Assembly (NCBI GenBank): GCA_049297675.1
Contig: JBAQUS010000011.1
Location: forward strand, 459-64,458
Source of the DNA: Minisyncoccia bacterium
GTDB lineage: Bacteria > Patescibacteriota > Minisyncoccia > Phycocordibacterales > DATDWN01
Length of the DNA stretch: 64,000 bases
Direction: 5' to 3'
The first letter of the stretch is position 1. Each line of letters opens with the position of its first letter. The notes below the pieces were generated by a model. That model was given only the letters and a program-made list of their open reading frames with translations. It was not told where the DNA came from and did no database searches. Positions 1 through 26,888 of the stretch are shown piece after piece. The position numbers were made by a program, and so were the translations under genes.

Positions 1-2562
1 TTTCTCGTCAATCGAGCCAGAACGTTCTAACCAACCCTTACTTCCGTCAGCCTCAAGAACGATAAATTGATCGGAGTCCGACGAAACGGAGATACTAGAG
101 TTGTGAGTAGTAAACAAAAATTGCCGTGCGTGTTTGCTTATTCGTAGCTTTGAACAAATATCAGCCCAAATAGAAGGCACATCGAGAGCGTCTTCCGGCT
201 GGTCAATCACGACAGGCATACTCCCGTCTCCCAACGCAATCATTATCAAGGCGTCTGCCTTTTGACCCATAGAAAGTTCCGAGAGGGGGTAGTAATTCCC
301 GTCTTTTTTCTGATAAGAAATCTCAATGCGATCTTCGGGATAGCCTTTATACTGAAGGCATAAAGTCCCCAACAGATTTTCTGTCTCCATTAGCTCGTTA
401 ATTATATTTTCGGCTTTCTGCTCGGTAAGTTTAGCCACTTGAGAGAGCTTCTTAACGTTCCTGTCTAAAACCATCTCAACAAGATCGACGGGTGAAACTA
501 GACTCGCGATTTCTTCAACTTCTTTTTTCTCGGCGTGTGAGCCGACCTTCAATTTCTTGAGCAGTTGAATATAGGTCGCTTTATTATCTCCAGCCTGAAC
601 AACAATTTGTAGCTTCCCGCCTGATTTACCAGTGATGAGCTTTGCTTGATCTGATCTTTCCGTAAAGTATGCGGACTTTGTAGTTCCAAGTTTCGTCAAA
701 AGACCGCTTCGTTCCGTTCTAAGCGTAGAGTATGCTTTCGCAGCTTTTTGAGCGGCGGTAATCTTTGTATCCAAATCTTTCTTCTCTCCCATGAGTTTCT
801 TCCTATCAGTCTCAAGGCCTTCCTGTTTCTTTTGAAGTTTTATCTCGCCGTTATACTTTTTCTCAACTTGAGAATATTTATTAGTCTTTTCCCACGCTAT
901 TAAGTCAGCTTGCGACTTCTTCTTTGCTTTTCCGATTGCTTCGCGTTGCTTCTCCAACGCTACGACAACGGCAGTATAGCTATCGCTTATATTGGCTTCT
1001 ATAATTTCCAAAATCGCCTTCGGGGTTTTCTTACGGGTAGGAGTATTTTCACGAAAGTTGTTAATAGCTTCGTCCACACTCTCAAAGAGAGAGTCATATT
1101 CTTCAATCTTCCCCTCGATAGCCGACTTTTCTTCCGAGAGTTTTATATACTTTTCAGAAAATCCTTTTGCTCCCAACGCACCAAGGCTCGTTTTTAGTTT
1201 CTTAACTTTCTCCTCGACAGTTCCCTGTTGTTTAAGGAAAGAATCTAGGTTCGCTGATCCTTGGATAGCTTCATAGAGACTTCGGTCAAGGTTGCCTAAT
1301 TCCTGAATAATGCCGGAAACTTTATTCTGGTGTGATTCAAAGTCTCTAAAATTATCTAACAGGCGGAGTTGTGCTTCGGGGTCGCGAGTTATTTCTAGTA
1401 TCTCGTTTTGGCTATATATGAGCATGGGGAAAATAGAAGAAACATCGCCCTTAAACTCCTTGTCCGTAATTTTATTGAAGCACTTAATAGCAGAGGAGTA
1501 AGGGTCGCGGGGATTATCAAACGTCCGCGACAATTCATATTGTTCGCCGGAGGCGTCCTTAAAAACTACTTTAACTTCGCCGTTAATGCGGAGTTGTTTT
1601 TCCAACTTTTGCTTGTGATCCGACAGAAGGTCGTCATGGGGTTTGCGGTCAAAGGCAAACCGCAGAAACTCCACAATTAAAGACTTCCCCGTTCCAGTTC
1701 CTCCGATGACGCTATTCATGCTCGGACTAAAATCAATTTCTTGTCCGTCGAGAAACCCGCCCGTTATAGAGATTTTCTCTATTCTAGGGTGTTCGGGATT
1801 TATCTTTTCCGTTTCGTAGTCCTGAACAATACGACTGTCGGGGTCTTCAAAGCATTGCCGCAGAGATTCTATTGTCAGTTCGCCCATTCTGAAATAAGTG
1901 AAGCCACTTCCAATAGAGGCGAGGCAATGCCCTTTGTCGTCGGGACTCCTGTTGTCAGAAGATTTATATACGGCAAGTTTCCGCTGATAGGTAAGGTCTT
2001 GGCCGTTCAAATAATCTACCAGTCTCTTGCCCTCCGCTTTCTCAAAATCGCCCGATGTGGCTTCGACGGCTGATAGGTTTTTATTCTTCACTATATCGGT
2101 TCGCGGATTACCTTTTATGTCAGACAACGCCCCATGCGTTGAATTCGCATGAGCCAACACAGGTAAGCCTCCGGCGTCTCTAACTATGTCTACAACATCA
2201 GGGACGCTTTTCGAGGTTAGCGAATCTTCGCCTTTGCCTTTTATATCGAGCTTCCCCAAAACTTTCTGAAGGTCATCTTTTGTCTTGGAAGGATCGAAAA
2301 GAGCAATAACGTGTATAGAGCCATTTACCGATCCGCCACAAGATATTTCTACGCCCGGAAATATCGTGAATCCTTTTTTTCGAGCGGCTTCTTTGGCGGT
2401 ATCTATAAAATCAACTGTATTGTGATCCGTTATCGCGATAGCGTCTAAGCCAACCTTTTTGGCATGTTCAATTATCTTTTCAGCCGTAATCGCTTTATCG
2501 GTGAAATCATGTGAGGCCGGAGTGTGAACGTGAAGGTCTAGTTTTCTTAATATGAGGGACAT
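1..2562 (-). CDS. Partial (C-terminus off-window) PHP-domain phosphoesterase fused to an SMC/Rad50-like ABC ATPase; at least 854 aa visible
   Basis: Manual reverse-strand translation from ATG at 2562..2560 runs without a stop to position 1 in the frame that ends exactly at nt 1. It starts 11 nt after the res stop codon. N-terminus has PHP motifs (LDLHVHT..SHDF, AIAITDH, PGVEIS, HVIALF, PVLAHANS). Walker A is GGTGTGKS (rc of 1681..1740). A K/E-rich coiled coil follows, then ABC signature LSMGQK, Walker B VVIDQPEDALD and H-loop TTHNSS. Not in the ORF track because there is no in-window stop. Confidence 0.6.
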   Translation of the reverse strand, partial: MSLILRKLDLHVHTPASHDFTDKAITAEKIIEHAKKVGLDAIAITDHNTVDFIDTAKEAARKKGFTIFPGVEISCGGSVNGSIHVIALFDPSKTKDDLQKVLGKLDIKGKGEDSLTSKSVPDVVDIVRDAGGLPVLAHANSTHGALSDIKGNPRTDIVKNKNLSAVEATSGDFEKAEGKRLVDYLNGQDLTYQRKLAVYKSSDNRSPDDKGHCLASIGSGFTYFRMGELTIESLRQCFEDPDSRIVQDYETEKINPEHPRIEKISITGGFLDGQEIDFSPSMNSVIGGTGTGKSLIVEFLRFAFDRKPHDDLLSDHKQKLEKQLRINGEVKVVFKDASGEQYELSRTFDNPRDPYSSAIKCFNKITDKEFKGDVSSIFPMLIYSQNEILEITRDPEAQLRLLDNFRDFESHQNKVSGIIQELGNLDRSLYEAIQGSANLDSFLKQQGTVEEKVKKLKTSLGALGAKGFSEKYIKLSEEKSAIEGKIEEYDSLFESVDEAINNFRENTPTRKKTPKAILEIIEANISDSYTAVVVALEKQREAIGKAKKKSQADLIAWEKTNKYSQVEKKYNGEIKLQKKQEGLETDRKKLMGEKKDLDTKITAAQKAAKAYSTLRTERSGLLTKLGTTKSAYFTERSDQAKLITGKSGGKLQIVVQAGDNKATYIQLLKKLKVGSHAEKKEVEEIASLVSPVDLVEMVLDRNVKKLSQVAKLTEQKAENIINELMETENLLGTLCLQYKGYPEDRIEISYQKKDGNYYPLSELSMGQKADALIMIALGDGSMPVVIDQPEDALDVPSIWADICSKLRISKHARQFLFTTHNSSISVSSDSDQFIVLEADGSKGWLERSGSIDEK

Positions 2563-2573
2563 ACTTTGTAGGA

Positions 2574-5255
2574 TTATTTACTCCAACCGCGTATAACTTC
2601 TTGGAAGTTTCGGGGCTTCTGTTGTTGCTTCTCCCAATCTTCCTGCTTTATGTATAGCATTTCGTAAGTAGCGTTTTTCTGACTGGCGTTCACATCAACA
2701 CACCACTGTTCGAGACGCTTTATCTTTTCCACGTCGTCCAAGTCCTCACGGCCTTTCGTCTCCACAATGTAATACTCCTTTGGCGACACTTTTACAATAA
2801 AGTCGGGATAGTAGTCGGAGATATTCCCGTCGGCATTTTTATAGTCAATTTTGAAGTGAACCGCAAAGTAGTTTTTGACGTATGAAATTATGTCGTCGCA
2901 ACCCTCAAGAAAACTTGCGAACTCAAGTTCAAAATGACTATCGCCAATAATCTTATTGAAGATACTCTTTTTAGGAACGATATAACCCTGATCCTTCACT
3001 ACGAACGGACGGCTCTTGCTGATTTTTATATAGTCCCTGATTTCAGCTTCTCCCTTGTCCAATACAGTCAGAGTGTTTATCTCTTTTTTGAATGTCTCAA
3101 AAATTGTCCGCGAAGCCTCAATCTCTGACAAGTTGCGAAGTGAGTTTAAGTTATCAAGCTCAATACTCTTATCGAATAGTTGGTTTTGAATAAACTCCTT
3201 CACTTTTTCATAGAGAATATCATAACCGCTAACCAAGCGTAGCTCCTTCATAACACTTTGCGTGAAGTAGCCGACGACGCTTTGATAGTTCGGCACAAAA
3301 TTGCTATCCAGTTCTGTTTTATGAGTTATATCTCCGCTCGAAATATCGCGGAAAACAATCTCTCTTTTTTCTTCTTCGGAAAATTCTTTTAGTAGAATTT
3401 TCTTATGACCGAATTTTGCTACGTTAAGCTCCGAGAGATTTTTATATTCACGATATATTCTTGGCGTGAGAACGGGAATCTCAATATCCAGTTTCTCAAT
3501 GTCCTTTTTCATATTCTCCCGATCAACCTCAACGACAAGAGGGCTTTTTGGTCCTGAACCTTCACCCATTTTCTTGTGTTCAAGTTCAACGCCCTCGCTT
3601 TTGATGGACTCCACAAAGTCCATAAATGCGTCCGTGCCGACTACGCTAACAAGCTCCGGTAAGTTAGGGTCGCGATACATACGACGCAAGCCACGGCCAA
3701 GCGTTTGTTCGGGGAGAATGTTGCTTTGTGCGGTATAGGCACGCAAGCCGACAATCGTAGTAACATTCCGCACGTCCCAACCTTCTTTAAGCATAAGCAC
3801 CGAGACAATCGCTTTATGTGGACTCTCCAAACGATCTATCTCGTTCGCGGCCTTACGCAATATTTTCAATTCTTCTTCCTTCTTTCCGGTAACGCTCTCC
3901 GAAATATCTCCGTTGTCTTTGGTATGAATAACAAGCACCGCGTCCTTTAACTCCGAATATGTATTTTCGAGATACTTGGCGACTTCATCACAGTTCTTTG
4001 TATCGTCAGTCATAAGGAACAGCACGGCTTTTTTGTTGAGCTTGATATGCTCGTCATAAACCTTTTTCCACTCCAAATAACCGAGATGAATATAGTCCTT
4101 ATATTTTTCCGTGAAGTTAGAGCTTTTATGCTCCTGTAATTTCGCCCGACTCGCCAAATCGGGAAGGACGGGATGTTTTACCACATCTTGATGTATTGCT
4201 TCCACAAGCGGGTAATCGCTTGTCGTTTGAACAAAGATAGAGCCGTTGGTATGTTTCGGTGTAGCCGTAACGTCCACCTGTAAACTCAACTGATCGCCTT
4301 TCATTTTGAGGCGATTATGAATGTCCTCAATTGCTTTGAACCAAGCCATTCGCGGGTCGTGGATATGATGAGCTTCGTCGTTTAGCACAACCAGCTCATC
4401 TATATTACGGACAATATCGCCAAGATCGAGCTTCGATTCATTCGTCGCTCCGGCTGGCTTGTCGCCGAGAAAATAACTCGATGTATCTTGGTCTTCAAAA
4501 CTTGCCGATTCAATCGCTCCCTCATAGACGCGATGAATGTTCGTGAGAAAAATATTTCCAGTTTTTCTCACAGTTCCTATCTCGTCCTGAATATGAAGCG
4601 TTGCCTGAAAATCATCTCGCCAATTTTTCCCATCGTAGCCGTTGTCGGGAAGCACGGGGTCTTCAAAAAAGATTTTTAGTCCATCAAAATCAGCACGAAT
4701 ACGATCAAGGACAATAATGTTCGGCGTGATAACTAAGAAATTGCGAGCGAGTTTTGAATCTTCCTCATAGAGTTTGTGAAAGTAGCACCACGCTAAAATT
4801 AAACTCAATACTTTCGTTTTTCCTGAACCAGTCGCCATTTTTACGACATACCGCGTCCAGTCCTCATCAAACATTCCTGCTGAAATCGCTCCCGAACTGT
4901 CAAAACGAATCAGGTCATATTTGTCTCTCGCTTTAGCAACGTCGTAAAGCCAGACGATAGTTTCCACCGCTTCGCGTTGAGCGAAGTAATACTGAAATAA
5001 AAATACTTCTCCGTCCGATGTTTCCATCGGGTGATCTTTTAAGAACCACCAATTCAATAGGGCTTTACTTGTTTCGCTCGCTCCCTTATATCCCGTAAGC
5101 CGCCACTCTTTTACCTTCTTGCGAAGTTCCGCAACGAGCGGCGGGAGCAGTTTCTCATACCCCTTTTCCCGCAAATTCTCGTCAGCCGGAAACCAACGGA
5201 TTGCCGGATCGAGAATTTCATAAGGCGACTTGGGGAATTTTTGATGTAAAGCCAT
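2574..5255 (-). CDS. res: Type III restriction enzyme Res subunit (SF2 helicase with C-terminal PD-(D/E)xK nuclease)
   Basis: 893 aa. Helicase motif I MATGSGKTKV and DEAH-like LNDEAHHI. C-terminal PDFIVK..ETKG nuclease motif. Translationally coupled downstream of mod. Confidence 0.8.
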   Translation of the reverse strand: MALHQKFPKSPYEILDPAIRWFPADENLREKGYEKLLPPLVAELRKKVKEWRLTGYKGASETSKALLNWWFLKDHPMETSDGEVFLFQYYFAQREAVETIVWLYDVAKARDKYDLIRFDSSGAISAGMFDEDWTRYVVKMATGSGKTKVLSLILAWCYFHKLYEEDSKLARNFLVITPNIIVLDRIRADFDGLKIFFEDPVLPDNGYDGKNWRDDFQATLHIQDEIGTVRKTGNIFLTNIHRVYEGAIESASFEDQDTSSYFLGDKPAGATNESKLDLGDIVRNIDELVVLNDEAHHIHDPRMAWFKAIEDIHNRLKMKGDQLSLQVDVTATPKHTNGSIFVQTTSDYPLVEAIHQDVVKHPVLPDLASRAKLQEHKSSNFTEKYKDYIHLGYLEWKKVYDEHIKLNKKAVLFLMTDDTKNCDEVAKYLENTYSELKDAVLVIHTKDNGDISESVTGKKEEELKILRKAANEIDRLESPHKAIVSVLMLKEGWDVRNVTTIVGLRAYTAQSNILPEQTLGRGLRRMYRDPNLPELVSVVGTDAFMDFVESIKSEGVELEHKKMGEGSGPKSPLVVEVDRENMKKDIEKLDIEIPVLTPRIYREYKNLSELNVAKFGHKKILLKEFSEEEKREIVFRDISSGDITHKTELDSNFVPNYQSVVGYFTQSVMKELRLVSGYDILYEKVKEFIQNQLFDKSIELDNLNSLRNLSEIEASRTIFETFKKEINTLTVLDKGEAEIRDYIKISKSRPFVVKDQGYIVPKKSIFNKIIGDSHFELEFASFLEGCDDIISYVKNYFAVHFKIDYKNADGNISDYYPDFIVKVSPKEYYIVETKGREDLDDVEKIKRLEQWCVDVNASQKNATYEMLYIKQEDWEKQQQKPRNFQEVIRGWSK

Positions 5256-5259
5256 AAGT

Positions 5260-7356
5260 TTATACTGTTACCTCAATTACTTTCATCGTGTCGTTGCCGA
5301 ATATATCAACCACCTTCACAGCTACCTTGCGTTTGCCTGAATTGACCTCAACGGACGAGCTGATAAGTTCCAAGTCCCGTTTCTTTTTTGTGCGAAAGTC
5401 CTGCCACTCGTTCTCAAAGATATAATCGCCAGTCCAGCGTTCCTCGACTTCGCCCGTCTGCTCGTTCTTTACGCGGATAGTTTCTTTTTTGCTTTCGAAA
5501 TTGAAATCCACCGCCCAATAATCTATCCAGTCAGTCCACTTTTTCGTAAGAACTTCGCGACTCGTAACGCCGTCCTTGTCTTTGGCGATTTTGATAATTT
5601 GCCCGTTCTCAACCAAGAGCTTTTTACCACCCGCTTTCAGATTTTCTTCAACTTCCTTTATTGAGTCCTGATTGTAGAAAACTGAAAAATCGGTAAGCTC
5701 GATTGCGATAGTTTTTTTCTTCACAATCGGCTTAACCTCAATATACGAGACATCGTGGAAAACGACTTGATTCTTTTCTATCGCTCTCTTATCAAATACT
5801 TCGCGGGGAATGTATTTGAGAGCAAGATCAACCCCTTTGCTTTTCGCTTCTTCCTGAATTTTCGGGAACAATCCCATCTCAAATTCAAAGGCGAGAATAT
5901 CAACCTTTGTTATTTGCTTTTCAATACATTCGTTGATAACCGCCTCAACAAACAGACGCGAGGCAGGCAAATTGATAGGGCCTATGGAAACAAGACGAGA
6001 ACTTTTCTTGCCGTGAAATGTTTTGAATCCTGCCGTTGCTTCCGCCTTGTATGCGGAGAGTATCAAAGATACAAAATCTTTTTCCTTTTGGGCTATTTGC
6101 TTTACTTTTTCTTCTTCTCGTAAATTCGGATTTATACCTACATAATGTTGCCTCTCATACTTACCAAGATTGAGGATCTCAAACGCCCGATAATTTTTAT
6201 TATCTTTTTTCAATTGCCTTTGAACGTCTATCATTCTTTTGCGAGTAGTGTGTATTCCGAACTTTCCAAGGTCAGAGCCTATCCATTTTCTTCCTAATTT
6301 TTCTGCAACGGCAAGAGTCGTGCCAGAACCACAAAAAAAGTCAGCGACAATATTCCCCTCATTAGAAGAAGCTTTGATAATACGTTCCAATAAGGCTTCT
6401 GGCTTTTGAGTGTCATAACCAGTATCATCATTAGCCATTGAATTTAAACGCGGAATTTCCCACATGCTTCCAACTTTTCTTTCCTTAGATTCGTAATACA
6501 CGACTTTCCCACTTTCATCTTTCACAGTGACAGTTTTTCTTGCAACTGGATCCCATGTGATTTTATTTTGTTTTCTAGGTTTTTCTAGGGGGATAGATTG
6601 ATGGTAAAAAATATAATTTTTACTTTTTGAATACAATAATATACTCTCGGTGTCTCGTGGGAAATTGCGTGCGAATCCGAATTGCAGTTTATTACGATAG
6701 AACCAAGTTATTTGATTGACTAAATTTTCTTTTCCAAAAATCTCGTCAAGTAATAATTTAGTATAGGCATTAACATCGCCCCCGATATGCACATAAATGC
6801 TCCCGTCATCAGCAAGCAAATCTCTCATTAAAACTAACCTTTCATACATCATCGCAATCCAACTATCAGTTCCTTTACCCCAAGTGTCCCGATACGCAAG
6901 CTCCTCAAGCACGTTTGGTTTCTTAGTAAATTCCTCTCCACCAATTTCAATATTCATTGAAAAATCAGCGCCCACATCAAACGGAGGATCAATATAAATA
7001 AGTTTGATTCCTCCCTGTTCTTCAATCTCTTGTCGCAACGGCCCATTCTTTAAGGAAGAAAGAATTAGCTTGTTATCTCCCCAAATAAGTTTATTTGTCC
7101 AACCTGAAATCTGTCGGCCACCTTCTCCAAAAAGTAATCCTTGAACCTCTCTTGTTTTTTCAAAACGCGGCTCATCTACTTGCTCAATAACTTGAAACGG
7201 CAAAACCGTATTCGTTACCTCGCTTGTCTTTCCATTCCATACAAGCTCTACTTCTTGTTTCTCCTCAAATAATAAAAAACGATATTTGTCGGGCAAGGGT
7301 TTACCTGCCTCAATATATTTCTGAATATCTCTTTTTTCGTTGTCGCTTAGATACAT
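5260..7356 (-). CDS. mod: Type III Mod DNA methyltransferase (beta-class N6A/N4C MTase), long C-terminal extension
   Basis: 698 aa. Motif IV IYIDPPF precedes motif I FFCGSGTT, the beta-class order typical of Type III Mod. 4-nt gaps to the HTH gene upstream and res downstream. Confidence 0.75.
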
Positions 7357-7360
7357 AAAT

Positions 7361-7567
7361 TTATTTGATTAAGTCTTCAATCGGAACGCCAAGTGCTTTT
7401 GCGAGCCGTTCAATGTTTTTCAAAGCCATATTCCGCACACCCCGTTCAATACCGCTTATATAAGTCGAGTGAACGCCTAAAACTTTGGCGAGATCGGCTT
7501 GCGACATCTGTTTTTTGAGTCTAATTTCTCTAACTTTTTTTCCAAACTTGGCTGATATATCTGTCAT
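7361..7567 (-). CDS. XRE-family helix-turn-helix regulator, candidate controller (C) protein of the R-M operon
   Basis: 68 aa. Classic HTH_XRE sequence ([26 protein letters not shown]). First gene of the HTH-mod-res-PHP/ATPase operon. Confidence 0.7.
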
Positions 7568-7646
7568 AAAATCATATTACACCCCTTGCGTGCATTCTAT
7601 CAGATATTGTAATATAGTTCTATGTAGAATTATCATTCTACCCTAT
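7568..7646. promoter_or_regulatory. Divergent promoter/operator region between the HTH-mod-res operon and the recombinase gene
   Basis: 79-bp gap between divergent genes. Contains palindrome TAGAATtatcATTCTA (6-4-6) and other dyad symmetry (attcta..tagaat). Candidate C-protein operator. Confidence 0.3.
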
Positions 7647-9200
7647 ATGTCTAAATACTTTCTTTACGTCAGAAAAAGCACCGATGTTGAAGACAAACAA
7701 GTCCTCTCCATTGAAAGCCAACTCGCTGAATTGCGGGCACTCGCTAAACATGAGAATCTTTCCATCTCGGACGAGTTTATCGAAAAGCGTTCAGCAAAAA
7801 TGCCCGGTCGCCCGATCTTCAACGATATGCTCCGCCGCATACAGACGGGCGAAACACAGGGCATTATTTGTTGGAAAGTAGACCGCTTGGCTCGCAACCC
7901 CGTGGACGGCGGACAGATTCAATGGCTTCTTCAACAAGGCGTGATCCAACACATTCAAACACACGACCGAAGCCATTATCCAAACGATAATGTTTTGATG
8001 ATGTCCGTCGAGTTAGGTATGGCGAACGAATATATCCGACAACTAAGTGCGAACACCGCACGCGGGCTAAGGCAGAAAGCACGGCAGGGGGATTTCCCCG
8101 GCCTTGCCCCGCTTGGCTACATCAACAATTCCAACATCAAGAAAATTGCCGTCCATCGCAAAAATGCGAAACTCGTTAAGAAAATGTTTGAACTTTACGC
8201 AACGGGAAGTGTCCGTCTTGAAAATCTTTCCTTGGTTTTGGAACAGGCGGGTATCCAGTCCAAAAATAAAAATCGCGTTCATATCTCGCGAATATCAAAT
8301 ATTCTCTCTAACCCGATTTATTACGGACACTTCCGCCACGCAGGGGAAATATACGAGGGCAAGCACGAGCCGATAATCACTAAAGACCTCTTTGATAGGG
8401 CTAATGCCGTCTTGCGAGGCAGAGGCCGTACCCCCGACAAGAAAACCGACCCAAGGCCTTTTTGTGGCCTCCTGTCGTGTGGGAGTTGCGGTATGGGGAT
8501 AACGGGAGAGATAAAGATAAAGAGGCAGAAGAACGGCAACACCCATCGCTATGTTTATTACCATTGCACTAAGAAAAATAAGACGCAGAAATGCCCTGAA
8601 CCCTGTATCCGAGCGGAGGAGTTAGACCGCCAGTTGTCGGTCATGCTTACCGAATACACTATGCCGAAAGAATGGGTAGCCCCACTTTCCGCCATGCTCG
8701 ACAAAGAGGAACACGACACTAAAAATTCCGCGTCGGGGGCTGTTCAAGAAATGCGGGGGCAAGTCATAGACTTTTCCCGCAACCTCGCCCGACTTACCGA
8801 TGTCTATGTTGCACAAGACATAGAGCGAGATGACTACCTTGAGAGGCGTCGTTCGCTTATGTCCGAGAAGAAGTCCGTCGAGGAGCAAATAGCCCGTCTT
8901 GAACATACCCCCTCCGCGTGGATCGAACCGACCCGAGACTGGATTAAAGACGCTTCCATACTGGAAGAAGTAGCAAAAACAGACGACCTCCCCTCCAAAA
9001 AAATCTCCCTCCAAAAAATCTTCGGCTCGAACCTCACCTTAAAAAAACGCGGAGCGTTCGGAATTGCCCAAAACCATTGGCTTTCTTTGGCGAACGCCAA
9101 AGAAAAAATTTCTAAAAATGACCTTAGTTTAATTCTGGTGCGTCCAGCAGGAATCGAACCTGCGACCCTCTCCTTAAAAGGGAGTTGCTCTACCGACTGA
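7647..9200 (+). CDS. Large serine recombinase (resolvase/invertase N-domain, recombinase domain, zinc ribbon, coiled coil)
   Basis: Catalytic region YVRKSTDVEDKQ..SIESQ and DRLARN. Zinc ribbon CGLLSCGSCG..YYHC. The track ORF starts at 7485, but the N-extension overlaps the HTH gene and promoter; the first Met followed by the resolvase fold is at 7647. The last 21 codons are antisense to tRNA-Lys. Confidence 0.8.
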   Translation: MSKYFLYVRKSTDVEDKQVLSIESQLAELRALAKHENLSISDEFIEKRSAKMPGRPIFNDMLRRIQTGETQGIICWKVDRLARNPVDGGQIQWLLQQGVIQHIQTHDRSHYPNDNVLMMSVELGMANEYIRQLSANTARGLRQKARQGDFPGLAPLGYINNSNIKKIAVHRKNAKLVKKMFELYATGSVRLENLSLVLEQAGIQSKNKNRVHISRISNILSNPIYYGHFRHAGEIYEGKHEPIITKDLFDRANAVLRGRGRTPDKKTDPRPFCGLLSCGSCGMGITGEIKIKRQKNGNTHRYVYYHCTKKNKTQKCPEPCIRAEELDRQLSVMLTEYTMPKEWVAPLSAMLDKEEHDTKNSASGAVQEMRGQVIDFSRNLARLTDVYVAQDIERDDYLERRRSLMSEKKSVEEQIARLEHTPSAWIEPTRDWIKDASILEEVAKTDDLPSKKISLQKIFGSNLTLKKRGAFGIAQNHWLSLANAKEKISKNDLSLILVRPAGIEPATLSLKGSCSTD

Positions 9201-9211
9201 GCTATGGACGC
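9136..9211 (-). tRNA. tRNA-Lys (anticodon UUU), 76 nt with encoded CCA
   Basis: rc gives GCGTCCATAGCTCAGTCGGTAGAGCAACTCCCTTTTAAGGAGAGGGTCGCAGGTTCGATTCCTGCTGGACGCACCA. Cloverleaf folds with a 7-bp acceptor, D-arm GCTC/GAGC, anticodon loop CTTTTAA and T-loop TTCGATT. Near-identical in layout to E. coli tRNA-Lys. Confidence 0.85.
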
Positions 9212-9928: not shown

Positions 9929-10627
9929 ATGAAAAAAGCAATTGCTTTAGTTGGAATGGCCTCAATGGTGCTTTCAGCAGTACCAGCATTGGCAAGTGTT
10001 AACTCAAGCTTCATAAAGATTGAGACTAACAACACAGGTTCAATTGACAACTATACATCTGCAAAAGCAGAGACAGGTAGCAACTGGGCAGGTGGAAGTC
10101 TAGGAGGAAGAGGAGGAAAGGGTGGTGAAGTAGAAGTAGACGGAAGTGGCGATTACAACAACGGTGGCGCACTAGCAGGTTTTGGTGGTCACGGTGGAAT
10201 CGCTGACATCGGCGGAACAGTAAGAACTGGTAATGCAGATGCACAATCATCAACAGAGAATTTTCTTAACACAACTGATGTCGATGTTGATCTTTGGGGA
10301 GAGGATGTAAACAGCTCAAAGATAAAGATCGAAACTAACAACGATAGTTGTGGTTGTGAAAACGAGACTAACCACGTCCAAAACAGAACAAAATCTCGAG
10401 CTAGAACTGGCGACAATAGCGCCGATGGTAGCGAGGGAGGAGCTGGTGGAAAAGGCGGTGATGTCGAAGCTTCAAGCGGAGACAACAACAACGGTGGTGC
10501 CTTTGCAGGTGATGCTGGTCACGGAGGATCAAGTAATGATGGAGGATGGATAGAGACAGGTGATTCAACAGCAACTTCTGAAGTTGTAAATGTTGTCAAC
10601 GAATCTCTTGTTCGCGTCAGACTATAA
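9929..10627 (+). CDS. Secreted Gly-rich protein with two internal repeat units
   Basis: Signal peptide MKKAIALVGMASMVLSAVPALA. Duplicated blocks (SSFIKIETNN / SSKIKIETNN; GGKGGEVEVDGSGDYNNGGALAGFGGHGG / GGKGGDVEASSGDNNNGGAFAGDAGHGG). C-terminal motif TGDSTATSEVVNVVN is shared with the next gene. Confidence 0.6.
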   Translation: MKKAIALVGMASMVLSAVPALASVNSSFIKIETNNTGSIDNYTSAKAETGSNWAGGSLGGRGGKGGEVEVDGSGDYNNGGALAGFGGHGGIADIGGTVRTGNADAQSSTENFLNTTDVDVDLWGEDVNSSKIKIETNNDSCGCENETNHVQNRTKSRARTGDNSADGSEGGAGGKGGDVEASSGDNNNGGAFAGDAGHGGSSNDGGWIETGDSTATSEVVNVVNESLVRVRL

Positions 10628-10850: not shown

Positions 10851-13800
10851 ATGACATCATTATTTCGTCTTAAGTCACCCACTGTTTGGATAGCCATTTT
10901 TACAGTGTTAATACTATTGTCTGGGTTCACTACTACCATATTAAGTGCCCAAGAAGCTCCCCCACCAGTCGATCTGTGTTCAGAGGTCTCTGGTGAACAA
11001 ACAGAAGAACCCTGTGCCAATACAGTTTGCACTACTGATGGTGGTGTGTGGAACGGTCAATCTTGTGATTTACCAGAGTCTGAAGTACAAAACATAGCTA
11101 CATCAACAGAGAGCATTCTTCCTACAACACAAACTGACACGGGAACCACTACAATTGAAATAGCTACATCGACCGACGGTACGGGGGGACTTTTTGGTGG
11201 AACAATTAATACAGGGGACGCCATAGCCACTACCAGTGTTGAAAACGAAATCAATACCAATTTCACAAATCTAAATGGTCAAGGTGAGTCAAATTCTTCC
11301 GACATGACTAGCCAAAACACAAATGAAGCGGAGGTGTTAAGCGGAGCTGAGGCAAACTCTAAAACTGGAGAAAATGAAGCTACTGGAGGAGTAAGTCCGG
11401 CAACAGTTTCAACTGGCGATGCTCTTTCTGCAGCAAACGTTATAAACGTGGTTAATACAAATATTTTTAATTCCGAGGGATTGGTTTTGTTTATGAATAA
11501 ATTATTCGGCGGAGGACTGGACTTAAGTGGGTATGATTTATCCTATTTCTTTGACGCACCAGTTGACTGTGATACCAATCCGATGATCCTGTCTTGTCGT
11601 AACAGTAGCGATCTAAATGTTATTAATACCAACTTAGCCACTGTCACTAACAGTGTTATTGTCCGTTCTTCAACTGGAGAGAACTTAGCATCATCAACAG
11701 AGGGAGGTAGTGCAGAGATAGGAACTGGAGACGCATACGCTGCTGCAAATGTTCTAAACTTAGTTAACACCAATCTCATAAACTCTAACTATCTTTTGGT
11801 CTCATTCAATAACTTCGGTGATTTAATCGGAAACATCACTCTTCCAGATTCTAATTTCTTCAAAAAACTGCTCTCTTCTGGTGGAGTATTGCCAGAGATG
11901 AATTCGAGTTCAGCTACAGCAAACAACACCAACAATGCCAACTTTTACGGGACAACAACAGCCAGTGGTGAAACCGGAAGCAATATTGCATCTACTACTG
12001 GTCAAGGCGTAGGAGAAGTAGATACTGGGGTCGCTTATACTTCGGCAGATACATACAACCAACTAAACGACACTCAGATCGGAGGAACTTCTGTATTCAT
12101 GCTTTTCCGTGTTTGGGGCGACTGGACAGGAAGCGTAAAAGGACTCCCCCCAGGCATGTCCTGGATGGAAACTCCAACAGGTATTATCCTAACGAGCGAC
12201 GCACCAGAGTGTTCAAATAACGAGGATGATGACCTTGACGGATTTGTTGATTCCTCAGACTCAGCTTGTCACACAAACGGTAATCCTAACAGTGAATTTA
12301 CGTACGACTCATACGGCACTTCGGAAAGTTCTCCGCAATGTACAAACAATACAGATGATGATGGAGATGGTTTTACTGATGTGGACGATCCAAGTTGCTT
12401 CGAGGAAAGTCATGGAGAGATGGTTTACATGCCAAACAAAAGAGAGCAATCACCAAATGGCGAGTATAACTCATCAAACCTAGTTGCTTCTTCAACCAAT
12501 ACTGCCAATCTAGAAAATAATGTCGAGGTTTTTGCTCTCACCGGGGAAAATGAAGCTGTAACAGAAAACGGAACATCCACTATATCTACTGGAAATGCCT
12601 ACGCCGTTGCAAACGTGGTTAATTTCGTAAACACAAACATTATAGGACGCAATTGGATATTTGCTCTCTTTAATATTTTCGGAGATTGGAGTGGAGATAT
12701 TGAATTCGGTAAGCCCAACCTATGGATCGGTGCTGTTGCAGAAACCACTAATCCAACTTTACCAGGATCGGATGTTATATATAGATTTACAGTTTCAAAC
12801 CGTGGTGACTCTGACGCAGAGAATGTGGTGATTAATGCAGAATTCGATAAAAACATGCTTTCTTTTAACGTAGATAATAACTCTGCAACAACTTCGGATG
12901 GAATGCTCTGGAGAATTGGCAGAATCGCTCGTGGTGAAACAAAGGATTTCACATATACAGCAAAGGTAAGCAATATTCCTGACGGAACTTCAGCCACAGT
13001 TCCTCTTAAGGCAACTTTAAACAGTAATACGGAAGACAGCGACTCAGAGGATAACTCCGAAGCTGTGACTATTGTGGTAACTTCTCCTGTTGTACTACCA
13101 GTAAATTCTTCTTCGAGCTCTGGTGGTAGCGGTGGAGGAGGAGGTGGCGGTGGAGTTCCGAACGTATGGACACCAGACCCTAAAATATCCATGACAAAGA
13201 CTGCCAACTTATCTACAAGTACTGTGGCAACTACTACCAAAGTTAACTATGAAGTCGTTCTGTACAATGACAAAACTGCTGGACCAGTATACAAAGGAGT
13301 TCTAACAGATACTCTTTACGGACCAGATGGAGAGGTAATGTCAAAAAGATCATGGAATCTCGACACCATAGCGCCTGGCGACCTCATTACTCTGACCTAC
13401 ACTATGGAATTTGGATCGAGCACTGTAGCCGGACTTTACAAGAACGTAGCCAAAGTTACTGGAAAACAAAACTATTCAATCTCCAGTGCTTGGAAAGATA
13501 CACCATCAGTTGAAGTTTCAAGCACAGTAATGTTTGACGAGTTTGCCTTAAAAGGTACCGTTCTCGAAACCGCCACAACCACACTTTCAAACCAGATTGC
13601 CGCAAGCTCTTCATGTCTTCCCCTTCTTAACACCAACTTGAGACGTGGTTTCAAAAATGACACTTCCGAAGTTAGAAGGCTTCAAGAATTCCTAAACAAC
13701 GAAGTGCAATCTAATCTTCCTATCACTGGATTCTTCGGGTCATTAACCCAAAGAGCCGTGGAATCATTCCAAAACAAGTACAAGGAACAGGTTCTTATTC

Positions 13801-25091: not shown

Positions 25092-26888
25092 TTACGATCG
25101 CATCATTTTGAGAAAAACATCTTGAGGGATATTTACCTTTCCCCTCTCTTTCATCTTCTTCTTTCCCTTCTTTTGCTTCTCACGAAGTTTCATTTTGCGA
25201 GTTATGTCTCCTCCGTACATGTGCTGAGTGACATCTTTACTGAAAGCTGAAACGGAACGACTAGAAATAATCCTCCCTAATGCTTTTCCTTGAATTTTCA
25301 TAGCAAACATCTGACGAGGAAGAACTAAATGGAGTTTTTCAACAGCTTTCTCTGCTTCTTCTTCAACCACCCTACGAGAAACTACTCTGGAGAATGCTGG
25401 GAGAACTTCGTCAGCTACTAGTATATCTAACCTAACAACATCAGCACTCTTCATTCCCTCTATTTCGTAAGAAATTGAAGCAAAACCACTTGATGAACTT
25501 TTCAGCTTATCAAAGAAATTTCTCATAAGTTCTCTAAGTGGCATCTTCAAAGTCAGTCTCGTTCTGTCTTCACCAAAGTTCTCGGAATCCCCCACTTCGG
25601 CTTCGTGTTCATAGAGAAGTGGCATAAGATTTGCTATATACTCTACTGGAGTAATAATAACCACTTTCGCCCAAGGCTCTTTTATTTCGGATAAAAGTCC
25701 TTCATCTGGAAAGTATGCCGGCGAATAAATCATCTCAGTTTTATCTTTTTTTGGACCCGATTTGTATTTGACTTCGTAAGTAATGGTTGGCATCGTCACA
25801 ACAAGAACTAGATTAAACTCTCTGTGAAGACGCTCTGTTATAATCTCTAAATGAAGCATTCCTAAAAATCCACATCTAAAACCCCTGCCTAGTGCTCCTG
25901 AAGATTCCTCTTCAAATGTAAAAGACGAATCAGAAAGTTTTAGTTTTCCGAGAGATTGTTTAAGTAGAATAAAATCATCTTGGCTTTCTGGATATATAGA
26001 TGCCCAAACGACTGGTCGAGGCGACATATATCCTGGAAGTGGTGGCAGATTATCTTTTAGGTCAGAAACTGTGTCCCCAACAGATGCTATACCTGGCTCT
26101 TTTATACCAGTGACAATGTATCCTATCTCTCCAGAAGAAAGTGAATCTACAGGCTTTTCATCTGGAGAAAATATTCCTACCTCTATGCCAGTAAATGTTT
26201 TTTTTGAAACCTTGAAAAGTAGTTTTTCATTTCGAGAAATTTTTCCACTCATAACACGAACAAAAACTATTACTCCTCTATGTGTTGAGTATTTAAAATC
26301 AAAAATGAGTGATCTAAAAGAATCAGTCACCTCTACTTGTTTAGGTTCCGGTATTCTTTTTATTATTTCTTTTAGTAAACTCTCCACACCCAGGCCTGTT
26401 CTGCCTGAAACTAAAAGTACTTCGTCCTCATTACAATCAAGTAGTTTAATTACTTCACTCTTTACCTCTTCTATCTTCGCCAGGGGAGAATCTATTTTGG
26501 ATATAACAGGTATGATTTTAAGCCCAGATTCTCTTGCCATTCCAAGTGTTGTTAGGGTCTGAGCCTGTACACCTTGAGTAGCATCTACCAAAAGTATTGA
26601 TCCTTCTACAGCCTTGAGTGCCCTTGAAACCTCATACGAGAAATCGATATGACCTGGAGTGTCTATTAGATTCAAAATATAACTTTTTCCGCCATGATCG
26701 TACTTCATTCTTACAGGTTGCATTTTTATGGTAATGCCTCTTTCGCGCTCAAGCTCCATAGAGTCGAGAACTTGATCCTGCATTTTACGAGCCTCAATCG
26801 TATGAGTTAACTCAAGTATTCGATCTGCCAAGGTGGACTTCCCGTGATCTATGTGGGCTATGATTGAAAAATTCCTAATATTCTGCAT
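25092..26888 (-). CDS. lepA: Elongation factor 4 (LepA)
   Basis: N-terminus MQNIRNFSIIAHIDHGKSTLADRILELT. GTPase motifs. Confidence 0.9.
   Translation of the reverse strand: MQNIRNFSIIAHIDHGKSTLADRILELTHTIEARKMQDQVLDSMELERERGITIKMQPVRMKYDHGGKSYILNLIDTPGHIDFSYEVSRALKAVEGSILLVDATQGVQAQTLTTLGMARESGLKIIPVISKIDSPLAKIEEVKSEVIKLLDCNEDEVLLVSGRTGLGVESLLKEIIKRIPEPKQVEVTDSFRSLIFDFKYSTHRGVIVFVRVMSGKISRNEKLLFKVSKKTFTGIEVGIFSPDEKPVDSLSSGEIGYIVTGIKEPGIASVGDTVSDLKDNLPPLPGYMSPRPVVWASIYPESQDDFILLKQSLGKLKLSDSSFTFEEESSGALGRGFRCGFLGMLHLEIITERLHREFNLVLVVTMPTITYEVKYKSGPKKDKTEMIYSPAYFPDEGLLSEIKEPWAKVVIITPVEYIANLMPLLYEHEAEVGDSENFGEDRTRLTLKMPLRELMRNFFDKLKSSSSGFASISYEIEGMKSADVVRLDILVADEVLPAFSRVVSRRVVEEEAEKAVEKLHLVLPRQMFAMKIQGKALGRIISSRSVSAFSKDVTQHMYGGDITRKMKLREKQKKGKKKMKERGKVNIPQDVFLKMMRS

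What the first reader, a model, noticed from the sequence alone, without database searches (positions are those of the whole stretch)
1..2562. Unlisted PHP-nuclease/SMC-like ABC ATPase fusion as fourth gene of a C-protein-controlled Type III R-M operon
A gene of at least 854 aa, missing from the ORF track because it has no in-window stop, starts 11 nt after the res stop codon. It fuses an N-terminal PHP phosphoesterase (all PHP His/Asp motifs present) to an SMC/Rad50-type ABC ATPase with Walker A, a roughly 400-aa coiled coil, signature motif, Walker B and H-loop. Nuclease plus ABC ATPase is the logic of OLD, Gabija GajA and SbcCD, but here the nuclease module is PHP and it is co-transcribed with mod-res. 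This suggests an accessory or back-up defence effector linked to Type III restriction. The C-terminus and any further partner genes lie beyond position 1.
Basis: partly seen in the sequence, partly recalled or inferred. Interest (0 to 1): 0.8.

Follow-up and report, generated by a model that had tools for sequence, protein, structure and literature searches.

The report
Ppl-like PHP nuclease-ATPase riding restriction operons
The unlisted gene is real and encodes a member of an already named family (TrlF, sister of the anti-phage protein Ppl) that joins a PHP nuclease to an SMC-like ATPase; its relatives sit inside restriction-modification operons of every type, so the link to restriction is real but not specific to Type III.

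Summary
Observation confirmed. An 854-codon open frame runs from 2562 to 1 on the minus strand and starts 11 nt after the res stop. The full protein is 880 aa, so the window lacks only 26 residues. PHP metal ligands, Walker A, Q-loop, signature, Walker B and H-loop are invariant among homologs. An AlphaFold model (pLDDT 85.9) matches RNase AM-type PHP domains and JetC/Rad50/SMC heads.

The fusion is not new. The truncated protein passes NCBIfam's curated cut-off for 'TrlF family AAA-like ATPase'. It aligns end to end with Ppl, a characterised single-gene defence exonuclease.

No partner gene lies beyond position 1. The source contig and a 94%-identical contig show TrlF as the last gene of a ~9.3-kb cassette: serine recombinase, C, mod, res, TrlF. 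The cassette is bounded by ~170-nt inverted repeats next to a tRNA.

The link to restriction is real but type-agnostic. Near-identical copies (94-97% nt, identity confined to the ORF) lie in Type I operons, after a Type II-like C-M-R operon, after Type III res, or alone. In 79 species-level loci an R-M gene is directly adjacent in 15 (odds ratio 5 against positions 2-10).

Most likely it is an autonomous Ppl-like end-sensing nuclease co-carried and co-expressed with R-M. It is a new member of a known kind.

The parts
1..2562 (-). TrlF-family (Ppl-like) PHP nuclease / SMC-like ABC ATPase gene. It covers codons 1-854 of 880; the last 26 codons and the stop lie outside the window.
   Evidence: Translation. 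NCBIfam NF045780 scores 384.6 bits against a cut-off of 350. P0383 is 100% identical and 880 aa long.
1798..2562 (-). PHP phosphoesterase domain (aa 1-255). The HxH motif is at 2521-2532 and the DH motif at 2419-2430.
   Evidence: Pfam PHP E 1.4e-10. Invariant metal ligands. Foldseek 7ug9 RNase AM PHP E 7e-8, TM 0.65. Profile against PDB: 7ug9 1.9e-10.
1348..1785 (-). ABC ATPase head, N-terminal lobe (aa 260-405). Walker A is at 1681-1704 and the Q-loop at 1402-1416.
   Evidence: Profile hits to the SMC3 head (3.5e-11) and Rad50 (4.6e-7).
625..1341 (-). Antiparallel coiled-coil insert (aa 408-646). It contains no cysteine, so there is no zinc hook.
   Evidence: AF2 secondary structure shows helices 408-436, 439-460, 469-505, 517-560 and 563-646. 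Sequence.
343..612 (-). Small strand-plus-helices domain between the coiled coil and the C-lobe (aa 651-740). Its role is unknown.
   Evidence: AF2 model, pLDDT 80-92.
1..336 (-). ABC ATPase head, C-terminal lobe (aa 743-854 and beyond). The signature LSMGQK is at 259-276, Walker B VVIDQPED at 190-213 and the H-loop at 100-111.
   Evidence: Pfam AAA_21 covers 715-824. AriA 8v46 profile hit 2e-7.
2574..5255 (-). Type III res (893 aa).
   Evidence: Pfam ResIII 1.6e-14; RE_endonuc at 20.8 bits, sub-threshold. PADLOC REase_III 4.7e-17.
5260..7356 (-). Type III mod (698 aa).
   Evidence: Pfam N6_N4_Mtase 1.2e-48. PADLOC MTase_III 5.7e-116 over 37-696.
7361..7567 (-). Controller (C) protein, HTH_3, 68 aa.
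   Evidence: Pfam HTH_3 1.5e-16. PADLOC Control_protein 3.3e-22.
7568..7646 (.). Divergent intergenic region. It holds the palindrome TAGAATGATAATTCTA (7625-7640) and further TAGAA(T/C) half-sites, which are candidate C-box operators.
   Evidence: This is sequence inspection only; no statistics were run.
7647..9200 (+). Large serine recombinase (517 aa from the conserved ATG), divergent from the operon.
   Evidence: Pfam Resolvase, Recombinase and Zn_ribbon_recom. The N-terminus MSKYFLYVRKSTD is conserved in L088 and L091.
8984..9144 (.). Left arm of the ~160-nt terminal inverted repeat of the cassette. The right arm lies about 167-338 nt beyond window position 1.
   Evidence: L107 arms 3419-3579 and 12730-12901, 98-99% complementary. 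The same layout occurs in L091.
9139..9211 (-). tRNA gene abutting the cassette, read here as tRNA-Lys(UUU).
   Evidence: Rfam tRNA 73.7 bits. ARAGORN. Sequence.

Best explanation
The gene encodes a TrlF-family, Ppl-like enzyme. It joins an N-terminal PHP metal-dependent nuclease to an SMC/Rad50-like ABC nucleotide-binding head that carries a ~240-aa coiled coil. I take it to be a self-contained second-layer defence nuclease. It is carried as the last gene of a C-protein-regulated Type III R-M operon, on a ~9.3-kb recombinase-bearing cassette, in a Minisyncoccia (CPR) chromosome.

Proposed mechanism, by analogy with Ppl (inferred, not shown):
- The ATPase heads bind NTP and hold the PHP exonuclease off.
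- When infection drains nucleotide pools and free 3'-OH DNA ends appear, the PHP domain degrades DNA from those ends.

Sitting in the R-M operon gives it co-transfer and co-expression with restriction. It needs no specific contact with Mod or Res.

Shown here: architecture, catalytic-residue conservation, family membership, operon position, cassette boundaries, and the recurrent type-agnostic adjacency to R-M genes.

Inferred: nuclease activity, NTP gating, anti-phage role and co-transcription.
For: Family and fold:
- NCBIfam TrlF 384.6 bits against a cut-off of 350.
- Full-length alignment to the Ppl models: NCBIfam residues 7-854 on model positions 6-858 of 882; PADLOC Ppl 2.8e-43.
- AF2 and Foldseek confirm the PHP and SMC-like folds.
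- All catalytic motifs are invariant.

Autonomy:
- Ppl works as a single gene. It is a 3'-5' ssDNA exonuclease inhibited by NTPs and activated by 3'-OH ends (PMC12904381, citing Xu et al., Mol Cell 2026, via PMC13434339).
- Close homologs occur alone, for example Peribacteria L082-87 at 70% and L093 at 95%.
- The same ORF at 94-97% nt identity occurs in Type I, Type III and MTase-S-fusion contexts. Identity starts and stops within ~13 nt of the start and stop codons. This argues against co-evolved contacts with any one R-M enzyme.

Operon:
- The gap after res is 11 nt, and no minus-strand terminator-like site lies between res and the gene.
- Homologs overlap hsdM by 4 nt.

No partner:
- L091 and L107 show the cassette ending after the gene.
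- No TrlG-like ORF occurs in the window.

The invariant Gln after the Walker B Asp (IDQPED) fits an NTP-binding sensor better than a fast motor. This last point is my inference.
Against: No member of the TrlF family has a demonstrated anti-phage or nuclease activity. The only genetics, from the Photorhabdus TRL locus, found no trlF mutations among its temperature-tolerant isolates; nearly all mutations mapped to trlG (PMC7554251).

The protein scores far below the Ppl equivalog cut-off (222 against 1000), so transfer of mechanism from Ppl is by homology only.

The five-fold excess of R-M genes directly next to TrlF homologs suggests more than hitch-hiking. A functional interplay with restriction is therefore not excluded.

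Co-transcription with mod-res was not measured.
Confidence: 0.5

Rival explanations
1. Functional partner of restriction through DNA ends. The enzyme is a generic post-restriction exonuclease that loads on the double-strand ends made by any R-M enzyme (Type I, II or III). It destroys the cut invader DNA and makes restriction irreversible. This is the role RecBCD plays in E. coli, and it could matter in small CPR genomes.
For: R-M genes occupy 10.4% of positions directly adjacent to TrlF homologs, against 1-3% at positions 2-10. That is 15 of 79 species-level loci, 12 of them on the same strand, with Fisher odds ratio 5.0 and p 1.9e-5.

About half of the distinct contexts of close relatives are inside or at the end of R-M operons of Types I, II and III.

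Upstream neighbours include N6_N4 MTases, C5 MTase, HindVP, HinP1I, Mrr and Type ISP proteins.

A RefSeq IncC plasmid has hsdM-hsdS-TrlF-TrlG-hsdR.

Ppl is reported to sense 3'-OH DNA ends (PMC12904381). A type-agnostic association is what an end-based coupling predicts.
Against: Most homologs (about 70-80% of loci) have no adjacent R-M gene, and Ppl defends as a single gene.

Embedding of unrelated, independently acting defence genes in R-M and BREX loci is common (Payne et al. 2024, bioRxiv 10.1101/2024.01.29.577857; TgvAB, PMC11411939).

Type III cleavage gives short 5' overhangs, not the 3' overhangs reported for Ppl. That statement rests on my own knowledge.

I did not check whether this genome lacks RecBCD/AddAB.
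Confidence: 0.25
2. Guardian of the R-M system, like PrrC or PARIS. The protein is silent while Mod/Res is functional. It is unleashed as an abortive-infection nuclease when a phage anti-restriction protein blocks the R-M enzyme.
For: It is an ABC-ATPase defence protein embedded in R-M operons, the same genomic logic as prrC in the EcoprrI hsd locus (PMC12707154; Payne et al. 2024). The C-terminal ATPase lobe hits AriA of PARIS (PADLOC AriA 6.8e-9; PDB 8v46 2e-7).
Against: The same ORF at 94-97% nt identity serves in Type I, Type III, MTase-S fusion and R-M-free contexts. This is hard to reconcile with sensing one particular R-M complex. The effector is a PHP DNase-like domain, not an anticodon nuclease. 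No interaction evidence exists.
Confidence: 0.1
3. Not an anti-phage gene. It serves the mobile cassette itself (processing of recombination intermediates, exclusion of competing elements). Or it is a growth-restricting or toxin-like module, as in the Photorhabdus temperature-restriction locus. Or it is an SbcCD-like repair function.
For: In the window, L091, L088 and L098 it is the constant gene next to the right inverted repeat of a serine-recombinase cassette whose R-M cargo varies. The family name comes from a locus that limits growth at 36 degrees C (PMC7554251). The fold resembles Rad50/SbcC.
Against: Most family members are not in such cassettes, and many are in defence islands with GmrSD, Hma-like genes, ToxN, Fic or AAA_21/DUF4435. 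In Photorhabdus the phenotype mapped to trlG, which is absent here. There is no zinc hook and no SbcD/Mre11 partner.
Confidence: 0.1

Closest known systems
TrlF family AAA-like ATPase (NCBIfam NF045780; named after trlF of the Photorhabdus laumondii temperature-restriction locus trlR-trlF-trlG, PMC7554251)
   Same: It passes the curated HMM cut-off even though truncated. It has the same PHP plus ABC-ATPase architecture and a length near 880 aa. The IDQPED and RQFxFTTHN motifs are conserved. A small HTH gene heads the operon.
   Different: There is no TrlG (Schlafen/AlbA_2 + HATPase_c_4) partner. That partner follows 12-13 of the distant (23-29% identity) relatives but none of the close ones. 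Here mod and res lie between the HTH gene and the TrlF gene. The function of TrlF itself is unknown in Photorhabdus.
Ppl (single-gene anti-phage system of Millman et al. 2022; mechanism in Xu et al., Mol Cell 2026, as summarised in PMC12904381 and PMC13434339)
   Same: It shares the N-terminal PHP nuclease plus NTPase/ABC domain in one ~880-aa polypeptide. The two are homologous end to end (NCBIfam Ppl model positions 6-858 of 882). Solo occurrences exist.
   Different: It scores 222 bits against an equivalog cut-off of 1000, so it is a sister family and not Ppl. The 3'-5' exonuclease activity, NTP inhibition and 3'-OH sensing are untested for this clade. This clade is often operonic with R-M genes.
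PrrC / TgvAB / 'embedded' defence genes in R-M, BREX and Hma loci (PMC12707154; PMC11411939; Payne et al. 2024, bioRxiv 10.1101/2024.01.29.577857)
   Same: It is a defence-type gene placed inside or at the end of an R-M operon. Close relatives sit between hsdM and hsdS, exactly like classic embedded genes. PrrC is also an ABC-type NTPase.
   Different: The effector domain differs: PHP rather than an anticodon nuclease or GmrSD. Here it is appended to a Type III operon. Dependence on, or independence from, the host R-M is unknown.
SbcCD / Mre11-Rad50, and OLD / Gabija GajA
   Same: They share the logic of an ABC ATPase with an inserted coiled coil controlling a metal-dependent nuclease that acts on DNA ends. 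Foldseek top hits are JetC, Rad50 and SMC heads.
   Different: The nuclease is a fused PHP domain. It is not a separate Mre11/SbcD calcineurin-like phosphoesterase and not a TOPRIM domain. The coiled coil is short (~240 aa) and has no CxxC zinc hook.

Membership tests
TrlF family AAA-like ATPase (NCBIfam NF045780) | Whole-protein score at or above the curated cut-off (350 bits) | tested here: met
   384.6 bits, E 1.5e-114, residues 6-853 on model positions 6-918 of 944, despite the missing 26 C-terminal residues. NCBI names relatives 'TrlF family AAA-like ATPase'.
TrlF family AAA-like ATPase (NCBIfam NF045780) | N-terminal PHP domain with intact metal-binding His/Asp/Glu residues | tested here: met
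   Pfam PHP 42.2 bits. H11, H13, D46, H47, E72, H84, H138, D203 and H212 are invariant. The fold matches 7ug9 and 3e0f.
TrlF family AAA-like ATPase (NCBIfam NF045780) | Operon trlR-trlF-trlG, with a downstream AlbA_2/HATPase_c_4 partner as in the founding locus | tested here: not met
   No TrlG-like ORF occurs in the window. In L091 and L107 the gene is followed by the cassette end. TrlG partners are seen only in distant relatives. This is a feature of the locus, not of the HMM-defined protein family.
Ppl anti-phage protein (NCBIfam NF042955 / PADLOC Ppl) | Equivalog-level sequence score (cut-off 1000 bits) | tested here: not met
   222 bits. PADLOC Ppl gives E 2.8e-43 in two stretches. It is homologous but not an equivalog.
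Ppl anti-phage protein (NCBIfam NF042955 / PADLOC Ppl) | PHP nuclease plus NTPase in a single polypeptide | tested here: met
Ppl anti-phage protein (NCBIfam NF042955 / PADLOC Ppl) | 3'-5' ssDNA exonuclease activity, inhibited by NTPs and triggered by 3'-OH ends; phage protection as a single gene | not testable with these tools
   This needs biochemistry and plaque assays. It is known only for E. coli Ppl (PMC12904381).
Type III restriction-modification system (host operon) | Mod methyltransferase of the Type III class followed by a Res subunit with helicase motifs and a C-terminal endonuclease | tested here: met
   PADLOC MTase_III 5.7e-116. Res: Pfam ResIII 1.6e-14 and PADLOC REase_III 4.7e-17. 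RE_endonuc scores 20.8 bits, just under its 23.4 cut-off. The order is mod then res with a 4-nt gap.
C-protein-controlled R-M operon | Small HTH controller gene at the head of the operon | tested here: met
   The 68-aa HTH_3 protein matches PADLOC Control_protein at 3.3e-22 and lies 4 nt upstream of mod.
C-protein-controlled R-M operon | C-box operator repeats upstream of the C gene | tested here: inconclusive
   The palindrome TAGAATGATAATTCTA lies at 7625-7640 with extra half-sites. L091 has a different palindrome (ATTGTATTATAC/GTATAATACAAT) at the same place. No binding data or statistics are available.
SbcCD / Mre11-Rad50 | Zinc-hook CxxC at the coiled-coil apex and a separate Mre11/SbcD nuclease subunit | tested here: not met
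   Residues 400-650 contain no cysteine. No SbcD-like neighbour is present.
OLD / Gabija GajA | C-terminal TOPRIM nuclease domain | tested here: not met
   No TOPRIM hit was found. The nuclease-type domain is an N-terminal PHP.

The most novel reading that the evidence does not exclude
The TrlG-less clade of TrlF/Ppl-like PHP-ATPases may be a plug-in 'post-restriction' module. It would move as a gene-sized cassette between R-M operons of Types I, II and III. It would cooperate with them through the DNA ends they create, destroying cut invader DNA and so taking the place of RecBCD-type degradation in streamlined CPR bacteria. That would make it a general accessory subunit of restriction rather than an independent defence system.
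Probability: 0.2. Interest if true: 0.7.

Novelty: new member of a known kind. Interest (0 to 1): 0.4.

Why it matters
The gene itself is a routine family assignment: TrlF, Ppl-like. The comparison still gives two things worth having.

First, it shows that an uncharacterised and very large family is preferentially wired into restriction-modification operons of every type. The family has about 1,000 clusters at 50% identity with E below 1e-30, and relatives in more than 500 species genomes. The ORF is exchanged precisely between those operons. This makes a concrete question testable: does a Ppl-like end-sensing nuclease act with restriction enzymes or merely beside them?

Second, it documents a compact cassette in CPR bacteria that packages a serine recombinase, a controller, an exchangeable R-M system and this nuclease. 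The cassette is tRNA-adjacent and bounded by inverted repeats.

Neither point overturns current ideas, since embedded defence genes are already known.

Tried and rejected
1. I looked for a solved Ppl or TrlF structure. The phmmer, profile and Foldseek searches of the PDB returned only separate PHP domains and SMC/Rad50/JetC/AriA heads. No full-length relative is deposited in the copy searched.

2. I tested whether the small HTH gene is really a TrlR that belongs with TrlF, with the R-M genes inserted between them. Among small ORFs directly upstream of homologs, only L056 has a related HTH. The idea is not supported.

3. I tested whether the Type III association is conserved. Close mod/res homologs lie near TrlF in only 3 of 80 species-level loci (L031, L036, L056) and in different arrangements. 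A Type III-specific link is rejected in favour of a type-agnostic one.

4. ARAGORN's 'tRNA-Stop (tta)' call at 9136-9211 suggested a suppressor tRNA. I reject this. The anticodon loop reads CTTTTAA, as in tRNA-Lys(UUU), and the call depends on shifting the loop by one base.

5. The 72-aa 'recombinase-like' ORF after TrlF in L091 is not a gene. It is the inverted copy of the recombinase 3' end inside the terminal repeat.

6. The Mol Cell 2026 Ppl paper and the Krishnan et al. 2020 ABC ATPase classification are not held in the library. The Ppl mechanism is therefore cited second-hand.

7. Promoter and terminator scans gave counts no higher than shuffled controls and were not used as evidence.
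Full report
**1. The observation**

The minus-strand frame from 2562 to 1 is open for 854 codons. It is absent from the mechanical ORF list only because ORFs that run off the source are not listed. The res ORF (2574-5255) ends with TAA at 2576-2574 and the new gene starts with ATG at 2562. The gap is 11 nt. The public gene calls on the source contig show the same spacing.

The gene is complete in the source. Protein P0383 is annotated 'MAG: PHP domain-containing protein [Minisyncoccia bacterium]' and is 880 aa long. It is 100% identical over all 854 residues. The window therefore lacks 26 residues. LepA at 25092-26888 is 100% identical to a protein of the same 179,156-nt contig. Neighbouring genes are housekeeping: PolA, RuvB, LepA, holA and PilB-like. 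The window is thus a chromosome of a Minisyncoccia (Patescibacteria/CPR) MAG.

**2. Domains**

- Pfam gives PHP at 42.2 bits and AAA_21 at 31.9 bits, both above cut-off. SMC_N and AAA_23 fall just below.
- An alignment with 17 homologs of 37-97% identity shows invariant PHP ligands: H11, H13, D46, H47, E72, H84, H138, D203 and H212.
- It also shows invariant ATPase motifs: Walker A G287-S294, Q385, signature S764/G766/Q767/K768, Walker B D787-D791 and H820.
- The AlphaFold model built on this alignment has mean pLDDT 85.9. Its parts are PHP 1-255, head N-lobe 260-405, helical hairpin 408-646, a small domain 651-740 and head C-lobe 743-849.
- Foldseek against the PDB returns JetC, Rad50, SMC, MukB, RecF and RecN heads (E 4e-12 to 1e-7). 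For the N-terminus it returns RNase AM (7ug9, TM 0.65) and 3e0f/3o0f PHP domains.
- A profile search of PDB sequences agrees.
- The coiled coil has no cysteine, hence no Rad50-type zinc hook.
- The residue after the Walker B aspartate is an invariant glutamine (IDQPED), where ABC ATPases normally have the catalytic glutamate. I read this as a hint of slow hydrolysis and a sensor role. That is inference only.

**3. What family it is**

NCBIfam places the truncated protein in 'TrlF family AAA-like ATPase' at 384.6 bits against a curated cut-off of 350. The next hits are 'anti-phage protein Ppl' (222 bits, cut-off 1000, aligned end to end) and the Spaf_1101 family. PADLOC's best hit is Ppl at 2.8e-43.

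TrlF was named in Photorhabdus laumondii as the large 'histidinol phosphatase'-annotated gene of the temperature-restriction locus trlR-trlF-trlG. All phenotypic mutations there fell in trlG, and the role of TrlF stayed unknown (PMC7554251).

Ppl is a single-gene defence system with a PHP domain and an ATPase (PMC11482910). It is now described as a 3'-5' ssDNA exonuclease. Bound NTPs hold it inactive. Nucleotide depletion together with 3'-OH ends releases it (PMC12904381; primary reference Xu et al., Mol Cell 2026, listed in PMC13434339).

The family is large. There are 1,022 clusters at 50% identity with E <= 1e-30. More than 515 species-level genomes carry a relative. There are 112 full-length matches on plasmids, most labelled TrlF by PGAP. 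The PHP-nuclease/ABC-ATPase fusion is therefore a known kind.

**4. What lies beyond position 1**

The source contig (L107) ends 378 nt after the stop codon. Contig L091 carries the same C-mod-res-TrlF operon, 93.7% identical over 6.4 kb, and continues further. After TrlF there is only a spurious 72-aa ORF. Convergent unrelated genes follow, one of them a carbonic-anhydrase-like protein. There is no TrlG-like or other partner, and none elsewhere in the window.

The block recombinase-C-mod-res-TrlF is bounded by long inverted repeats:
- In L107 the arms are 3419-3579 and 12730-12901, 98-99% complementary. They correspond to window 8984-9144 and to a site 167-338 nt beyond position 1.
- In L091 the arms are 749-943 and 10051-10221. 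Two identical direct copies of tRNA-Gly(CCC) lie just outside them.
- In the window the left arm abuts a tRNA (Rfam 73.7 bits). ARAGORN calls it tRNA-Stop. Its anticodon loop CTTTTAA reads as Lys(UUU).

TrlF is therefore the terminal cargo gene of a ~9.3-kb recombinase-bearing cassette.

**5. Is the link to restriction real, and is it Type III-specific?**

Close relatives, with amino-acid identity to the window protein:

| Locus | Identity | Context |
|---|---|---|
| L091 | 97% | Same Type III operon |
| L098 | 82% | Type III res directly followed by TrlF |
| L081/L092 | 96-97% | hsdM-TrlF-(163 aa)-hsdS; start codon overlaps hsdM by 4 nt |
| L094-96 | 95% | N6_Mtase+Methylase_S fusion protein, a 204-aa gene, then TrlF |
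| L088/L097 | 82% | Serine recombinase divergent from C (68 aa), N6_N4 MTase, 386-aa gene, TrlF; a Type II-like C-M-R operon in the same cassette type |
| L089 | 73% | hsdR-hsdM-TrlF-hsdS |
| L099 | 74% | hsdR-hsdM-TrlF-(152 aa)-(179 aa)-hsdS |
| L100 | 54% | TrlF followed by an N6_N4 MTase |
| L093 | 95% | No adjacent R-M gene |
| L082-87 | 70% | No adjacent R-M gene |
| L101 | 90% | No adjacent R-M gene |
| L090 | 72% | No adjacent R-M gene |

The 94-97% nucleotide identity between the Type III copy (L091) and the Type I, fusion-MTase and solo copies begins and ends within about 13 nt of the start and stop codons. The ORF has moved between operons as a gene-sized unit.

I also examined a species-dereplicated sample of 79 loci, using crude ORF calls and R-M profiles built in-session, so the counts are lower bounds:
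- An R-M gene is directly adjacent in 15 loci. That is 10.4% of adjacent genes, 12 of 15 on the same strand.
- At positions 2-10 the rate is 1-3%. Fisher odds ratio is 5.0, p 1.9e-5.
- Pfam scans of same-strand neighbours add Mrr, HindVP, HinP1I, C5 methylase, Type ISP, MmeI-like and ResIII proteins.

Annotated records show the same pattern. IncC plasmid pCFR-0b27 has hsdM-hsdS-TrlF-'RNA-binding domain protein'-hsdR. A Halapricum plasmid has TrlF and a DUF262 gene amid DUF1156, DUF499 and SNF2 genes.

By contrast, close homologs of this particular mod-res pair lie near TrlF in only 3 of 80 loci, in three different arrangements. The association with restriction is therefore real, operonic and type-agnostic.

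The canonical partner TrlG (SLFN_AlbA_2 in 12 and HATPase_c_4 in 10 downstream neighbours) accompanies only the distant clade at 23-29% identity.

**6. How it most likely works**

I favour an autonomous Ppl-like nuclease at confidence 0.5. NTP-bound ATPase heads restrain the PHP exonuclease. Loss of NTPs and the appearance of free DNA ends during infection release it. The operon position provides co-transfer and co-expression under the C protein.

Arguments for autonomy:
- Ppl sets a single-gene precedent.
- Solo homologs exist.
- One nearly identical ORF is used promiscuously across unrelated R-M enzymes.

The adjacency excess keeps a second model alive at 0.25. In that model the enzyme processes the ends that restriction creates. 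That coupling needs no specific protein contact and would work with any R-M type.

A PrrC/PARIS-like guardian role (0.1) fits the embedding but not the promiscuity. A non-defence role for the cassette, or a TRL-like growth-restriction role (0.1), cannot be excluded. None of these models can be separated by sequence analysis.

**7. Comparison with what is known, and novelty**

Embedding of defence genes in R-M and related loci is established. Examples are prrC in EcoprrI, TgvAB in a Vibrio Type I operon, and the 'guilt by embedding' survey that lists Ppl among ABC-ATPase defences (PMC12707154; PMC11411939; bioRxiv 10.1101/2024.01.29.577857). I found no paper describing TrlF-family genes as R-M-embedded or appended to Type III operons. 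The library is incomplete.

The finding is a new member of a known kind. Three modestly new observations come with it: a TrlG-less clade, ORF-precise exchange among R-M operons, and a compact inverted-repeat cassette in CPR bacteria.

**8. Verdict**

Interest is 0.4. The gene is ordinary in family terms, but the type-agnostic wiring into restriction operons gives a clear, testable question about cooperation between restriction and Ppl-like nucleases.

Noticed in passing
window 8984-9144 (left arm); right arm about 167-338 nt beyond window position 1; L107 3419-3579 / 12730-12901; L091 749-943 / 10051-10221: The recombinase-C-mod-res-TrlF block is bracketed by ~160-175-nt inverted repeats, 95-99% complementary. 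The left arm contains the 3' end of the serine recombinase gene and abuts a tRNA. In L091 two identical direct copies of tRNA-Gly(CCC) lie just outside the arms. Long terminal inverted repeats are not what a simple serine-integrase insertion predicts. The block could be an invertible or transposon-like element.
   Followed up: partly
window 9136-9211 (-): ARAGORN labels this tRNA 'tRNA-Stop, anticodon tta'. Rfam scores it as a good tRNA (73.7 bits). The anticodon loop reads CTTTTAA with an A-A mismatch closing the stem, so it is most simply tRNA-Lys(UUU) and not a suppressor.
   Followed up: partly
window 190-213 (aa 784-791): Walker B reads VVIDQPED. An invariant Gln (Q788) follows the Walker B Asp, where ABC ATPases have the catalytic Glu. 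This is a natural 'EQ-like' state and may mean nucleotide sensing rather than rapid hydrolysis. The motif is conserved across the whole family, and it served as the search pattern that recovered 515 relatives.
   Followed up: partly
window 7361-7646 versus L091 2270-2547: The window and L091 share mod-res-TrlF at 83-94% nt identity. Their C genes are only 38% identical in protein, and their upstream palindromes differ. Their recombinases are ~70% identical in nucleotides and sit next to different tRNAs (Lys against Gly). The controller/recombinase module and the cargo module have separate histories.
   Followed up: partly
window 46715-50515 (-): A 1,266-aa VirB4/TraG-type P-loop ATPase is interrupted by an intein with a LAGLIDADG homing-endonuclease domain (Pfam Intein_splicing, LAGLIDADG_3, P-loop_TraG).
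   Followed up: no
L107 (source contig) 3363-4917, equal to window 7647-9200: The public gene calls on the source contig list no recombinase gene here, only a 71-aa ORF on the other strand. Yet the 517-aa serine recombinase frame is intact in the window and is called on the Logan contigs L108-L110.
   Followed up: no
L093 13203-14660; L089 14416-16674; L104 (Halapricum plasmid): Other defence-type genes cluster near close TrlF homologs. These include an AAA_21/AAA_15 ATPase with DUF4435, a GmrSD_N protein, Fic and RadC genes, and a DUF1156/DUF499/SNF2 (Hma-like) set with an embedded DUF262 gene.
   Followed up: no
L081 3454-4607 and L092 4528-5019; L099 10431-11462: In the Type I contexts, one or two small genes without Pfam matches (221 aa and/or 163 aa in L081/L092; 152 and 179 aa in L099) lie between TrlF and hsdS. 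The 163-aa protein has a weak relative next to TrlF in L008. These are possible additional embedded components.
   Followed up: partly
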